Part shown: one piece after another, positions 10,291 through 14,603 of the stretch
How the letters are laid out: the number at the start of each line of letters is the position of its first letter
Position numbering within the stretch: position 1 is the first letter of the stretch
Virus record (IMG/VR): IMGVR_UViG_3300030406_000618
Length of the DNA stretch: 20,000 nt
From: an uncultured virus (IMG/VR IMGVR_UViG_3300030406_000618)
Taxonomy: Duplodnaviria; Heunggongvirae; Uroviricota; Caudoviricetes
Reading direction: 5' to 3' (one strand)
Translations under genes and position numbers: made by a program
The notes under the pieces: generated by a model
The model's database searches: none
Told to the model about the DNA's origin: nothing
What the model saw: only the letters and a program-made list of their open reading frames with translations

Positions 10291-10318
10291 ACTTTACCCA
10301 AAAAAAAAATATATTCAA
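10291..10318 (-). promoter_or_regulatory. Candidate sigma70 promoter giving a leaderless mRNA
   Basis: TTGAAT (10318-10313), 16-nt spacer containing T10, TAAAGT (10296-10291), 6 nt, then ATG at 10284; no SD. Confidence 0.4.
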
Positions 10319-10542
10319 CGCTGTTTGTAGTGTTCATAACATAGAAAATAATAACTACCTACCTCGTTCTTGATATGAAACGGAGCAAATTCTCCACACT
10401 CACAACAACGACAATACTTAATGTGTTCTTTATGTGTCCATTTTAGTATTTGTAACAGATTGTAACACGGACCTTTTTCGCTATTAATGTGAGTAGAGGA
10501 CCTTTCTCTGTGCTGTCGCTCCTGTTTTCTAACCCCCCTCAT
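10315..10542 (-). CDS. Small zinc-finger-like protein (start uncertain)
   Basis: C-terminal half has CCEC...LCYEH (CxxC/CxxH). The N-terminal part looks less protein-like. Confidence 0.45.
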   Translation of the reverse strand: MRGVRKQERQHRERSSTHINSEKGPCYNLLQILKWTHKEHIKYCRCCECGEFAPFHIKNEVGSYYFLCYEHYKQR

Positions 10543-10926
10543 CTAATCTAGGTCTATCTTGATAGAGAGATTTCCTCCTACACTGTGCTGTACCTTATCA
10601 GGAGCTTTGAACCCACTCCTATCTAGGATGTCCTTCGACGCCTCTAGCTTCACGTAATCAGACTTCGCATCTTGTGCGAGTCTTACGATAGTCTTGACTG
10701 CTGGGATAGCTCCCACCAGACCTATCTCTGCTATACGTGAGCGGTAGTACTCTTGTACCTTTGGAAGTCGTAGCGTCTTACTAGCAGTAACTCTACCAGC
10801 TTCTCCCTTTGCATATCCTGCTATTTGACTAGCTTTTGCTACGGAGCAACCTTCTGCTACGAGGGTATCAATTAGCTTACGTTGTTTGTTTGTAAGACCA
10901 TCAGGTCCTTTTATGTGACTGCCCAT
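10543..10926 (-). CDS. terS: Terminase small subunit
   Basis: Likely start is MGSHIKG at 10926 rather than 11079. HTH segment 'LTNKQRKLIDTL..GCSVAKASQIAGY...ASKTLRLPKVQEY', then 'VKLEASKDILDRSG' and a C-terminal beta strand. Confidence 0.8.
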   Translation of the reverse strand: MGSHIKGPDGLTNKQRKLIDTLVAEGCSVAKASQIAGYAKGEAGRVTASKTLRLPKVQEYYRSRIAEIGLVGAIPAVKTIVRLAQDAKSDYVKLEASKDILDRSGFKAPDKVQHSVGGNLSIKIDLD

Positions 10927-10931
10927 AACGA

Positions 10932-10961
10932 TAGATACCTTGCTACGGTTTATGTTGTCAA
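10932..10961 (-). promoter_or_regulatory. Candidate late-operon promoter
   Basis: Perfect TTGACA (10961-10956), 18-nt spacer, TATCTA (10937-10932), 5 nt, then the terS ATG; no SD. Confidence 0.45.
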
Positions 10962-10978
10962 GTGAAAAATTGTAAACA

Positions 10979-11422
10979 AACGAGAGATGTTCCCTCTCTC
11001 GTGCTCTCTCCCTAGTGGGATGATCTAGGATCATCAGTTTAAAAGGTAAATAAAATTGACTTATTAGCGTAATAGCCATGACTAGTTGTCATGTCTATCA
11101 GTACGCCCATGTATCTCTAGTTCGCTCTGCTCCCAAGAGCTACTATGTTTCTCAGTCGAGCTGAGAATAACAAGCAATCCAATTTTATTTTTACTCTCTC
11201 TCGATAATGCTCCATTCGTGGCGACAGAGTTAGGGGGGGTATCAGCTATGTACACGCCACGAACTACCAGTAGATTCTTTCACCAGTCAAGCCATAAAGG
11301 CTCTCGGTGCAACAAGTTGCTTGACGTTTATATCACTTCGTGAAGCGATCAAACAACTGGTCGCACTGACTGTCTTAGAATCTATGGTTGCTAAAGTGGG
11401 CATTAACGAGAGATCGACTCTC
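10979..11422 (+). ncRNA. Large structured intergenic element (ncRNA, 5' leader or origin)
   Basis: Many nested stems, e.g. 11048-11058/11180-11190 (11 bp perfect), 11197-11212/11398-11413, 11216-11224/11255-11263 and 11271-11278/11377-11384. G-U pairs favour the + strand. Confidence 0.55.
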
Positions 11423-11444
11423 ATCATATCAAAGGAGATATACA

Positions 11445-11804
11445 ATGAAGATAACAAGTAACAAAATATATGTAGTTCACACACAATACTATGAGGATTA
11501 CAATATGGAGGCTTCATCATGGAATGAAGGATATTACAAATTTAAAGGAGGAGATACATACTTCCTCTTTGGATTTGACAAAATGGCTACAGCAGTAGCA
11601 TTTGTACATAAGGAATTATGTTATCCAACTGAGTTTCCATCTGGCTACGATGAAATGACATATGATGAAGCAGAAAAATTATATGCTGAGTACACGGAGC
11701 ATGGAGGTGAGGTAAAGAAAATAGACTTACATCAGTGGATGGAGTTGAATGATGGAGGAAGAACGCATAGCGTATCAAAAGATGAAGGAGGCAGAAATGC
11801 ATAA
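11445..11804 (+). CDS. First early gene; conserved phage hypothetical protein
   Basis: AAGGAG SD then ATG at 11445 (MKITSNK...); 'HTQYYEDY...YKFKGGDTY' motif. Confidence 0.75.
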   Translation: MKITSNKIYVVHTQYYEDYNMEASSWNEGYYKFKGGDTYFLFGFDKMATAVAFVHKELCYPTEFPSGYDEMTYDEAEKLYAEYTEHGGEVKKIDLHQWMELNDGGRTHSVSKDEGGRNA

Positions 11805-12489: not shown

Positions 12490-12529
12490 GCTAGTGGGGT
12501 TTATACCCCATTAGCAAAAATTTTTTTTT
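12490..12529 (+). terminator. Probable terminator ending the first early unit
   Basis: GCTAGTGGGGT-TTAT-ACCCCATTAGC (11 bp, one G-U) followed by A5 then T9; the T-run is displaced from the stem. Confidence 0.55.
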
Positions 12530-12549: not shown

Positions 12550-12578
12550 TTGAATATACCGAGCACTCGTGTTACAAT
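12550..12578 (+). promoter_or_regulatory. Sigma70 promoter with extended -10
   Basis: TTGAAT, 17-nt spacer ending TGT, TACAAT; AT-rich tract upstream; SD and ATG 12596 follow. Confidence 0.65.
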
Positions 12579-13194: not shown

Positions 13195-13402
13195 TCTGTT
13201 AGATAGGAATGTCATAGAAAATATACTGACTGATCTTGGTAAATGTCAGGAGGAGTCAGGTGTTATCATGACTGATGCTAAGTATGTGTTTGAAGCATCA
13301 CAAAATTTAGAGGATCGTATCAAAGATATAAGTGATCGTTTAAATAAACTAATTGAAACTTGGGAGGAACGAGATGACTACAAGAAAGCAAATGCACGTT
13401 GA
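13187..13402 (+). CDS. Hypothetical coiled-coil protein
   Basis: AGGAGG SD at 13175-13180 favours a start at 13187 (or 13184). Confidence 0.65.
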   Translation: MTNLLDRNVIENILTDLGKCQEESGVIMTDAKYVFEASQNLEDRIKDISDRLNKLIETWEERDDYKKANAR

Positions 13403-13553
13403 ATTAAGTGTATCAGTACCTTGCTTCAGATGTAATGGACTAGGTGTGATACCATGGGGTGATGCTCCTGATGAATGTGATCAATGTGAAGAATGTGAAG
13501 GACATGGTGAATGGCTGGAAAAAGTAGACATGAAGGAGGAAAATAATGAGTGA
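13374..13553 (+). CDS. DnaJ-type zinc-finger microprotein
   Basis: Two CxxCxGxG repeats (CFRCNGLG, CEECEGHG); GGAGG SD before ATG 13374. Confidence 0.7.
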   Translation: MTTRKQMHVELSVSVPCFRCNGLGVIPWGDAPDECDQCEECEGHGEWLEKVDMKEENNE

Positions 13554-14203: not shown

Positions 14204-14208
14204 GTTTA

Positions 14209-14585
14209 ACTGGGTGCATTGGTCTTTGTAGCAGTGAGTGAAAGAAAGCTGATAGGCTTGGTAAGACAAGTTAGCGTAAAGAGGGTGAGACCTACCTCTG
14301 CCCAGTAAAAAGTTTCCGTATGGAACTGTGTAGGAAAGACATAAGGTAGTAAGCGTAAAGCTAAAGCTGGTGGCTACACGCCTACACAGAAAGTTTCGTG
14401 ATACTGAGTAGCTCTCGGTATCGGCTGACTGAACAACTCTTTAACAGAGGGGTAAGGTACACTTGAGATGAAGTATGGGCAAATGCCTGAGGTACTCGAA
14501 GGTGGTTGTAAGTAGGCAAATGATGAATGTATATCTGTAGCTGAAAGCATGAGGGTAATAACACTAATCCCTCGCCCTTGGCGAA
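14209..14585 (+). ncRNA. Candidate large structured ncRNA (about 380 nt)
   Basis: 400-nt gap in a tightly packed operon, GC-richer than the flanks. Stems at 14209-14215/14300-14306, 14326-14334/14381-14389, 14400-14408/14414-14422, 14433-14438/14504-14509 and 14551-14555/14569-14573, with many G-U pairs and A-rich junctions. Confidence 0.65.
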
Positions 14586-14603
14586 TGTAACAAAGGAGGA
14601 AAT

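What the first reader, a model, noticed from the sequence alone, without database searches (positions are those of the whole stretch)
10979..11422. About 440-nt two-domain folded element between the divergent terS and early operons, bracketed by a 10-nt direct repeat
Seen: domain A is closed by AAATAAAATTG/CAATTTTATTT (11048-11058/11180-11190). It encloses three hairpins (GCGTA..CATGAC/GTCATG..TACGC; GCTCT/AGAGC; TTCTCAG/CTGAGAA). Domain B is closed by TCTCTCG-A-TAATGCTC/GGGCATTA-A-CGAGAGA (11197-11212/11398-11413). It encloses TTCGTGGCG/CGCCACGAA and a multibranch arm (ACCA-G-TAGATTCT/AGAATCTA-TGGT, CAGTCA/TGACTG, GCGATCA/TGGTCGC and small hairpins). AACGAGAGAT occurs at 10979 and 11405, each starting a local GAGAG/CTCTC hairpin, and either copy can pair with the central TCTCTCG, allowing alternative folds. 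Inference: a second large ncRNA, a regulatory or antitermination leader of the earliest transcript, or a structured replication origin/primer RNA. The last option is attractive because no initiator gene is visible.
Basis: partly seen in the sequence, partly recalled or inferred. Interest (0 to 1): 0.75.

Follow-up and report, generated by a model that had tools for sequence, protein, structure and literature searches.

The report
Conserved folded element in phage control region

Summary
Every stem, coordinate and the 10-nt repeat are in the sequence. The 516-nt spacer folds far better than shuffles on both strands (z -5.9 and -5.7).

Domain B (11197-11413) is a three-way junction found in 20 of 38 terS-linked relatives, in five sequence clades. 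12-13 of 35-37 consensus pairs show compensatory changes; 0 of 500 shuffles reach the observed score. Domain A (11048-11190) keeps only a covarying closing stem; its interior is lineage-specific.

Rfam 15 has no match. The phage is a roughly 33-kb pelagiphage-like podovirus with two divergent gene arms and no recognisable polymerase, primase, helicase or initiator. This spacer is its only divergent control region.

Three tests place the selected fold on the minus, terS-sense strand:
- wobble positions: 31 against 0;
- folding energy: lower on minus in 21 of 21 spacers;
- C(GAA)G hairpin tips recur on that strand.

An early-mRNA leader is therefore disfavoured.

My weights are a leftward late-sense RNA about 0.35, a single-stranded-DNA initiation signal or origin on the minus strand about 0.3, and a plus-strand early leader about 0.2. 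No transcript, end or origin data could be obtained.

The parts
10543..10926 (-). terS (terminase small subunit), first gene of the late arm
   Evidence: PF03592 Terminase_2, E 1.2e-07; phrog_2538, E 1.9e-12
10927..10976 (-). Conserved block just upstream of terS with promoter-like hexamers on the minus strand: TTTACA (10976..10971), TTGACA (10961..10956), TATCTA (10937..10932)
   Evidence: Nearly invariant flanks around an AT-rich variable core in all 16 printed relatives. Promoter function is inferred, not shown.
10980..11002 (-). Hairpin h_L, ACGAGAGA-N7-TCTCTCGT. It is terminator-like on the minus strand in this window only.
   Evidence: 8-bp stem followed by TTGTTTACAA. The stem covaries: CGAGAGA/TCTCTCG becomes CGAGAGG/CCTCTCG in L021. 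L025 has an A.C there, which is G.U on the minus strand. Absent in L019, L024 and L031.
11019..11035 (.). Small hairpin GATGATC-TAG-GATCATC
   Evidence: shared with L036
11048..11190 (-). Domain A: an 11-bp closing stem enclosing three hairpins
   Evidence: The interior is shared only with L036. The closing stem covaries across clades: AAATAAAATTG/CAATTTTATTT; TAACCATTG/CAATGGTTA; TAAACATTG/CAATGTTTA; AAACGATTG/CAATCGTTT.
11197..11413 (-). Domain B: a three-way junction. P1 is 11197-11213 with 11397-11413. P2 is 11215-11263. The long arm P3-P4-P5 is 11266-11388.
   Evidence: The same architecture appears in 11 separately folded relatives. Covariation. Strand tests.
11241..11246 (.). ATCAGC (GCUGAU on the minus strand), an invariant unpaired motif in the P2 loop
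   Evidence: Invariant in all 12 rows of A2
11308..11365 (.). TGCAAC ... GTCGCA: a conserved helix with a fixed A.C on the plus strand, which is G.U on the minus strand
   Evidence: The same two half-motifs recur as a hairpin, GTCGCAC..GTGCAAC, in unrelated spacers (L031, L032, L053, L054).
11333..11343 (-). Tip of P5: TCAC-TTC-GTGA, which is C(GAA)G on the minus strand
11408..11422 (.). Hairpin h_R, GAGAG-ATCGA-CTCTC. It shares its GAGAG arm with the right-hand strand of P1, so the two helices exclude each other.
   Evidence: present in all 12 family sequences with varying loops
11426..11441 (+). Hairpin ATATC-AAAGGA-GATAT carrying the Shine-Dalgarno sequence of early gene 1
   Evidence: The pair U-A becomes C-G in 4 of 12 rows. 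One G.U occurs on the plus strand, in L025.
11445..11804 (+). First early gene (119 aa, no known family)
   Evidence: Relatives carry different first genes behind an identical 60-nt upstream block.

Best explanation
The spacer holds a previously undescribed, evolutionarily maintained folded element. The fold is selected on the strand that has the sense of terS.

My committed reading is a non-coding RNA transcribed leftward, in the late sense. It would start at the right edge of the spacer, next to or just inside the start of early gene 1. It would then run through domain B, domain A and hairpin h_L to the terS promoter region.

It would act in cis as the upstream leader of the 26-kb packaging and structural operon. 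At the same time it would be antisense to the leader of the first early gene, coupling early shut-off with late expression.

The five arms of one motif (minus-sense order: GAGAG, UCUCUCG, CGAGAGA, ACGAGAGA, UCUCUCGU) allow mutually exclusive helices: h_R against P1, and P1 against h_L. This gives the RNA a possible conformational switch.

Shown: the fold, its conservation and covariation, its strand bias and its genomic setting. Inferred: that the folded molecule is RNA, where it starts and ends, and what it controls.
For: Fold and conservation:
- z is -5.9 and -5.7 for the whole spacer.
- Domain B is found in 20 of 38 terS-linked loci, with one copy per complete genome.
- 97% of cells are paired, against 88% in shuffles and 31-50% when partners are slid. 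12 of 35 and 13 of 37 pairs carry compensatory changes. 0 of 500 shuffles reach the observed covariation score.
- Eleven relatives folded separately give the same P1/P2/P3-P5 layout, although the arm sequences differ.

Strand:
- The minus strand is more stable in 12 of 12 domain-B sequences and in 21 of 21 whole spacers.
- Its excess stability over shuffles is larger in 9 of 9 sequences.
- Positions paired on only one strand, and flanked on both sides by pairs common to both strands, are A.C type (G.U on minus) in 16 cells and G.T type in 0 for domain B. For the 21 spacers the count is 31 against 0.
- The coding arms, used as a control, give 12:6 and 5:9.
- The consensus energy is -29.9 (minus) against -25.4 (plus).

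Possible start: an extended -10-like TGATATGAT lies on the minus strand at 11431..11423. It would place a start 1-3 nt before P1 (read). Similar TGnTA motifs occur in clades I-IV and in the L025 subclade of clade V, but not in L021.

Possible end: h_L is terminator-like on the minus strand in this window.
Against: - No leftward promoter is demonstrated, and the simple scan found none there.
- The conserved block stops exactly at the ATG while the first gene differs among relatives. A promoter inside gene 1 would therefore not be conserved.
- In other spacer types the minus-strand closing helix includes the complement of the Shine-Dalgarno sequence. That pushes any start into gene 1.
- The U-tract after h_L is absent in L013, L014 and L021.
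- terS has its own conserved promoter-like block, so a long leader is not required.
- C(GAA)G tips are a hallmark of stable DNA mini-hairpins rather than of RNA.
- A cUUCGg tetraloop sits on the plus strand in clades II and III. The Shine-Dalgarno hairpin of L025 has a plus-strand G.U.
- A looser wobble count is much less one-sided: A.C 23 against G.T 16. Helix-end positions are even, 11:11.
- The relatives are not independent. The 31 cells correspond to roughly 15 independent events.
Confidence: 0.35

Rival explanations
1. A single-stranded-DNA initiation signal, or structured origin, on the minus strand. When the spacer is unwound by divergent transcription, recombination or a passing fork, the minus DNA strand folds. 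This strand is the template for the early genes and the lagging-strand template for a leftward fork. The fold would recruit host primase, RNA polymerase or a restart primosome. The phage, which encodes no initiator, primase, helicase or polymerase, would get its replication (or early transcription) started this way.
For: - The same strand evidence as above applies. It also holds with DNA energy parameters: minus is more stable in 16 of 16 spacers, z -4.1 to -11.2.
- No promoter is needed for this reading. That fits a conserved block ending at the ATG and closing helices that reach the complement of the Shine-Dalgarno sequence.
- C(GAA)G is the commonest hairpin tip on the minus strand, in 7 of 16 spacers and at least 5 lineages.
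- CTTCG against CGAAG is 20:1 in 6.7 kb of spacers, against 7:6 in the rest of the window. The exact heptamer GCGAAGC is present in L020, L069 and L030.
- A review (PMC13037366, passages read) places GCGAAGC and other GNA mini-hairpins at the G4 complementary-strand origin, at RSF1010 ssiA and at N4 early promoters.
- No replication gene beyond SSB and exonucleases was found in the window or in a complete relative.
- Cumulative GC skew has its minimum at about 11 kb.
- Frpo-type single-strand promoters are about the same size and are stimulated by SSB (PMC11541004, passages read).
Against: - This is a double-stranded-DNA podovirus, and no stage with single-stranded DNA is shown.
- The GC-skew switch coincides with the switch in gene orientation, so it is not independent evidence.
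- I found no -35/-10 pair in the stems in the Frpo arrangement, only a weak -10-like CATTAT (read).
- There is no DnaA box in the spacer.
- Known priming signals are mostly 60-150 nt, not a 220-nt three-way junction with a second domain.
- Large folded DNA signals are so far known from plasmids and single-stranded phages.
Confidence: 0.3
2. A plus-strand 5' leader of the early operon. The early promoter would lie upstream of the fold. The structured leader would control translation of gene 1 through the (CU)n strand pairing with the purine-rich region at or next to the Shine-Dalgarno sequence. Alternatively it would modify RNA polymerase to read through the terminator at 12490-12515.
For: - The fold always abuts the ribosome-binding site, whatever the first gene is.
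- In other spacer types the closing helix pairs a (CT)n run directly with AAGGAGA.
- The Shine-Dalgarno hairpin covaries and has a plus-strand G.U in L025.
- A cUUCGg tetraloop occurs on the plus strand in clades II and III.
- A strong intrinsic terminator follows the third early gene.
- The plus strand is also far more stable than shuffles, z -5.1 to -8.1.
Against: - The wobble test gives 31:0 against this strand.
- Several conserved helices carry fixed A.C mismatches on the plus strand.
- The plus strand is the less stable strand in 21 of 21 spacers.
- No early promoter was found upstream of the fold (my own reading).
- A 17-bp helix over the Shine-Dalgarno sequence (L032) would block an early gene that should be made at once.
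Confidence: 0.2
3. A protein-binding DNA region: a packaging (pac/cos) site or terminal-repeat boundary recognised by terS, or an operator array for an early regulator. The four CGAGAGA copies would be the binding sites.
For: - CGAGAGA occurs four times, in both orientations, and only in this spacer.
- The P1 arms are invariant rather than covarying: 12 of 12 identical.
- The region lies directly upstream of terS, where cos sites lie in lambda-like phages (recalled knowledge).
Against: - Protein sites do not explain compensatory changes in P2, P3, P4, P5 and the domain A stem, nor the strand bias.
- The left pair of copies is missing in L019, L024 and L031.
- No end mapping was possible.
Confidence: 0.08

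Closest known systems
Single-strand initiation signals and single-strand promoters (G4-type complementary-strand origin, RSF1010 ssiA, F-plasmid Frpo, N4 early hairpin promoters)
   Same: - The fold is strand-specific and lies on the strand that is the template for the adjacent early genes.
- The size, 220-440 nt, is comparable with Frpo.
- GNA-type mini-hairpin tips, C(GAA)G, are present.
- An SSB gene lies in the same early arm.
- The host machinery would have to be recruited.
   Different: - No -35/-10 pair was found in the stems.
- The genome is double-stranded, with no known single-stranded stage.
- The architecture is a three-way junction plus a second domain.
- No sequence similarity was tested or claimed.
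ColE1 RNA II primer and T4/T7 transcript-primed origins
   Same: - A long structured transcript would run toward an AT-rich stretch.
- The minus-sense RNA has purine-rich tracts (GGGAGAGAGCACGAGAGAGGGAA) that would form stable RNA-DNA hybrids.
- There is no phage initiator.
   Different: - No promoter, RNase H site or antisense partner is shown.
- The purine tract near terS is missing in several relatives (L019, L024, L031).
- This type is known from enterobacterial plasmids.
Phage late-operon leaders and cis-acting antitermination RNAs (lambda PR' 6S leader, HK022 put, Bacillus EAR)
   Same: - A structured non-coding RNA lies upstream of a very long late operon transcribed by host polymerase.
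- In this window a terminator-like hairpin lies between the fold and the first late gene.
   Different: - It is far larger than put or EAR.
- There is no Rfam match.
- No Q- or N-like protein was identified. The only hint is a chance-level one, E 0.0079, for a 66-aa zinc ribbon.
- The terminator is not conserved.
phi29 packaging RNA (pRNA)
   Same: - A three-way junction is closed by the paired 5' and 3' ends.
- It has two domains.
- It lies next to packaging genes.
- Sequence identity among relatives is very low while the fold is conserved.
   Different: - This phage has terS and a T7-like portal, so it does not need a pRNA.
- I looked for loop-loop complementarity that covaries and found none.
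- pRNA is 120-174 nt.

Membership tests
Any Rfam 15 family | Score at or above the family's gathering threshold | tested here: not met
   0 matches in the window. 0 matches in 10 relatives' loci, 61,859 bases. At E up to 10 on 10800-11600 there were only two chance hits outside the fold, SNORD14 and mir-205.
Riboswitch or cis-regulatory 5' leader of the early operon | The fold is selected on the sense strand of the downstream gene | tested here: not met
   Wobble test 31:0, and energies 21 of 21, in favour of the opposite strand. Weak counter-signals on plus: cUUCGg in two clades and one G.U.
Riboswitch or cis-regulatory 5' leader of the early operon | An expression platform: a terminator, or Shine-Dalgarno sequestration that competes with the closing helix | tested here: inconclusive
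   h_R competes with P1 but has no U-tract. The Shine-Dalgarno sequence sits in its own small covarying hairpin. In other spacer types it is inside the closing helix.
Frpo-type single-strand DNA promoter | The fold lies on the template strand of the downstream genes | tested here: met
   The minus strand is the template for the early genes and is the strand under selection.
Frpo-type single-strand DNA promoter | -35 TTGACA and -10 TATAAT with proper spacing inside the stem, oriented toward the genes | tested here: not met
   Reading the far arm of P1/P2 on the minus strand gives only CATTAT as a weak -10 and nothing like a -35 at 16-18 nt.
Frpo-type single-strand DNA promoter | The DNA is single-stranded when the element acts | not testable with these tools
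   The structural genes are those of a T7-like double-stranded-DNA virion. No data on replication intermediates.
G4-type or ssi priming signal | Hairpins with stable mini-hairpin tips (GCGAAGC or other GNA) at the priming site | tested here: met
   C(GAA)G occurs at the P5 tip (11333-11343) and in 7 of 16 relatives' spacers. The motif's link to origins comes from PMC13037366 (passages read).
G4-type or ssi priming signal | Supports primer synthesis on SSB-coated single strands | not testable with these tools
   Needs a biochemical assay.
phi29-type pRNA | The phage lacks a small terminase and uses the RNA to bridge portal and ATPase | tested here: not met
   terS is present at 10543-10926.
cos/pac site | Genome termini map to the site | not testable with these tools
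   Only assembled contigs could be laid. IMG/VR labels G003 as having terminal repeats, but its contig ends are 10 kb from the element.
DnaA-dependent origin | A cluster of DnaA boxes | tested here: not met
   TTATCCACA with up to 1 mismatch gives 9 matches in the window against 7.6 expected, none within 10927-11444. No DnaA-domain protein was found.

The most novel reading that the evidence does not exclude
A double-stranded-DNA podovirus of marine bacteria, with no replication or transcription enzymes of its own, carries a 220-440-nt folded single-stranded-DNA signal in its only control region. The signal lies on the template strand of the early genes. It has mini-hairpin C(GAA)G tips like those of G4, RSF1010 ssiA and N4. 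It would recruit the host primase or RNA polymerase to start replication or early transcription. This would be a phage counterpart of the plasmid Frpo/ssi elements, diversified into many unrelated sequence types across this phage group.
Probability: 0.3. Interest if true: 0.85.

Novelty: new variant of a known kind. Interest (0 to 1): 0.7.

Why it matters
Phages of this two-arm, enzyme-poor type are among the most abundant viruses of ocean bacteria. How they time their genes and start replication with host enzymes only is unknown. Du et al. 2021 (PMC8477408, passages read) describe a similar layout for the HTVC010P group and leave this open.

This spacer is the single place where both arms start. 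It is filled by a fold that evolution keeps while swapping its sequence. 16 different spacer types were tested, and all are significantly structured on the minus strand.

It is therefore a concrete, testable handle on late-gene control or origin function. Whichever molecule it proves to be, it is a structured element family not yet in Rfam.

Tried and rejected
- **Named phages:** blastn ('distant') of the spacer found no match. The nearest held record, G001, is a fragment without the region.
- **Nearest named relative:** Pelagibacter phage EXVC031P (terL 66% identical) has a different long hairpin in the same spacer, not this family.
- **Expression data:** one search for sequencing runs and one laying of 4 runs gave only assembled contigs. 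An RNA-library contig of a relative spans terS, the spacer and gene 1. A 225-nt contig equals 11202-11428. Neither shows strand, ends or transcription.
- **Pattern scans:** Only L359 and L399 are true members. Absence from bacterial genomes is therefore not shown.
- **Viral-contig pattern scan:** it mostly refound the same contigs. L090 was the only new one.
- **Promoter searches on both strands (and reading):** no convincing early promoter and no proven leftward promoter.
- **Ideas dropped because they were not consistent across clades:** pairing of the G-run in the P2 loop with the C-run near h_L; loop-loop complementarity of the pRNA type; a hammerhead-like CUGAUGA core (only CUGAU is conserved); and the 10-nt repeat as terminal-repeat boundaries (the left copy is missing in three relatives).
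- **Protein coding inside the fold:** rejected, because gaps among relatives are not multiples of three and the arm is replaced wholesale.
- **Literature:** 'pelagiphage' with 'noncoding RNA' gave 2 irrelevant papers. 'EXVC031P' gave 0. 'HTVC010P' with 'intergenic' gave 5, none describing this element.
- **Earlier findings of this scan:** nothing by place, sequence or words.

Full report
**What is there**

The window comes from a podovirus. Its late arm on the minus strand holds a T7-type portal, terL and terS (10543-10926). Its early arm on the plus strand starts at 11445 and holds a YqaJ/RecE-like exonuclease, a second exonuclease, SSB and a DUF932 protein. The nearest named phage is Pelagibacter phage EXVC031P, with terL 66% identical over 98% of its length.

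A complete relative, G003 (32,786 nt), has only these two arms. They diverge at this spacer and converge about 6.6 kb to the right. No polymerase, primase, helicase or initiator was found among the 14 of its larger proteins that I scanned against PHROGs, nor among the window's early-arm proteins. Du et al. 2021 describe a similar two-arm layout, without RNA or DNA polymerase, for HTVC010P-type pelagiphages (PMC8477408, passages read). This window's terL does not match that group. The spacer 10927-11444 is thus the only divergent control region of the genome.

**Check of the observation**

- The spacer folds to -159.1 kcal/mol on plus and -164.3 on minus, against shuffle means near -126. That gives z -5.9 and -5.7, with 0 of 100 shuffles as stable.
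- The 400-nt gap at 14204-14603 serves as a control and is not structured (z -0.96 and -0.34).
- CGAGAGA occurs four times in 20 kb, all in the spacer. 0.76 are expected, and 0 of 200 shuffles reach four.

**Relatives**

A search of IMG/VR with terS gave 69 loci. The first early protein gave 6.
- BLAST of the spacer against them shows that domain B is 69-94% identical in 14 loci. The domain A interior is shared only with L036.
- Motif spacing identifies domain B in 20 of 38 loci examined, forming five sequence clades.
- The 60 nt upstream of the early ATG are identical in clades I-III although the gene behind them differs.
- Each of 11 sequences folded on its own gives the same layout: closing helix P1, hairpin P2, long arm P3-P4-P5 and a small hairpin holding the Shine-Dalgarno sequence. 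The arm sequences themselves differ, for example UAGAUUCU/AGAAUCUA, CCUUUC/GAAAGG and AUUUUAC/GUAAAAU.
- On the MAFFT alignment of 12 sequences, 97% of cells are paired, against 88% in shuffles and 31-50% when partners are slid.
- On that alignment, 12 of 35 (plus) and 13 of 37 (minus) pairs show changes on both sides, and 0 of 500 shuffles reach the observed covariation score.
- P1 itself never varies, so it says nothing either way.
- The domain A closing stem covaries among clades. Clade V lacks domain A.
- Rfam has no match in the window or in 10 relatives.

**Strand**

- The minus strand is more stable in 12 of 12 domain-B sequences and in 21 of 21 whole spacers, including spacer types unrelated in sequence.
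- It is also more stable in 16 of 16 spacers with DNA parameters.
- Its excess over dinucleotide shuffles is larger in 9 of 9 sequences.
- I ran a symmetric wobble test. It counts positions paired in only one strand's fold and flanked on both sides by pairs common to both folds.
- The test gives A.C (G.U on minus) 16 and G.T 0 in domain B, and 31 against 0 in the 21 spacers.
- The same test on the coding arms gives 12:6 and 5:9.
- Some of these mismatches are fixed across distant clades, such as TGCAAC/GTCGCA and GTCGCAC..GTGCAAC.

Results against this reading:
- A looser count is only 23:16.
- Helix-end positions are 11:11.
- Clades II and III have a cUUCGg tetraloop on plus.
- One G.U in the Shine-Dalgarno hairpin is on plus.
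- The sequences are related, so the 31 cells amount to about 15 independent events.

**RNA or DNA**

The commonest hairpin tip on the minus strand is C(GAA)G, in 7 of 16 spacers and at least five lineages.
- CTTCG outnumbers CGAAG by 20 to 1 on the plus orientation of the spacers, against 7 to 6 elsewhere in the window.
- A 2026 review (PMC13037366, passages read) describes GCGAAGC and related GNA mini-hairpins as extraordinarily stable DNA motifs. It finds them at the G4 complementary-strand origin, at RSF1010 ssiA and at N4 early promoters.
- A minus-sense RNA needs a promoter at or beyond the early start codon. The conserved block ends exactly at that ATG.
- In other spacer types the minus-strand closing helix reaches the complement of the Shine-Dalgarno sequence. 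A DNA fold needs no promoter.
- Against DNA: the virion is of a double-stranded type, no single-stranded stage is known, and I found no -35/-10 pair in the stems as in Frpo (PMC11541004, passages read). The GC-skew minimum at 11 kb cannot be separated from gene orientation.

**Verdict**

The fold is real, conserved, covarying and not in Rfam.
- With probability about 0.75 the selected strand is the terS-sense strand.
- I commit to a leftward, late-sense RNA at 0.35. It would be a leader of the late operon and antisense to the early leader, with alternative pairings among the CGAGAGA/UCUCUCG copies.
- A minus-strand DNA initiation signal or origin follows closely at 0.30.
- A plus-strand early leader stands at 0.20.
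- A protein-binding packaging or operator region stands at 0.08.

No transcript, terminus or origin data could be obtained, so the function remains inferred.

Noticed in passing
window 10927-10976 (minus strand): The block just upstream of terS is nearly invariant in all printed relatives, except for an AT-rich 8-nt core. It holds TTTACA, TTGACA and TATCTA hexamers. TATCTA ends 5 nt before the ATG, so terS may have a very short leader or none.
   Followed up: partly
window 12490-12515 (+) and 12550-12578 (+): A strong intrinsic terminator (11-bp stem, 6 G-C pairs) follows the third early gene. A promoter-like site with a TG extension comes next. The first three early genes may therefore form a separate immediate-early unit.
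   Followed up: no
window 14204-14603: A 400-nt gap without ORFs lies before the DUF932 gene. It is not more structured than shuffles on either strand (z -0.96 and -0.34). The corresponding gap in relative G003 is only about 220 nt.
   Followed up: partly
L008, L016, L020, L027, L030, L032, L035, L053 (spacers upstream of terS): Relatives without domain B carry other spacers of 180-650 nt, unrelated in sequence and equally structured. They share a (CT)n run as one strand of the last closing helix, a GTCGCAC..GTGCAAC hairpin, and the ribosome-binding block AAAGGAGATATA..ATG. The spacer looks like a hot spot for module exchange.
   Followed up: partly
L024, L013, L015, L019, L031 (just upstream of the terS -35-like hexamer): One or two tandem copies of ACATCTGTT are present on the minus strand. 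The window has GTTTGTTT at this place instead.
   Followed up: no
window 13353-13553 (+): A 66-aa zinc-ribbon protein of the DnaJ CXXCXGXG type (E 0.00036, below Pfam's cut-off). It has a chance-level match to Q-like antiterminators (phrog_127, E 0.0079).
   Followed up: no
window 10315-10542 (-): A 75-aa cysteine-rich protein lies directly after terS, with no family match. It may be a zinc-binding nucleic-acid binder.
   Followed up: no
L076 3594-3930 (Pelagibacter phage EXVC031P, spacer between terS and the early gene): The nearest cultured relative has a different element in the same place: a single long imperfect hairpin of about 120 nt.
   Followed up: partly
whole window, 300-nt windows: In both arms the sense strand folds more stably than its complement. 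The means are -61.6 against -52.6 in the late arm and -66.1 against -57.9 in the early arm. This is a compositional strand asymmetry that follows gene direction.
   Followed up: partly
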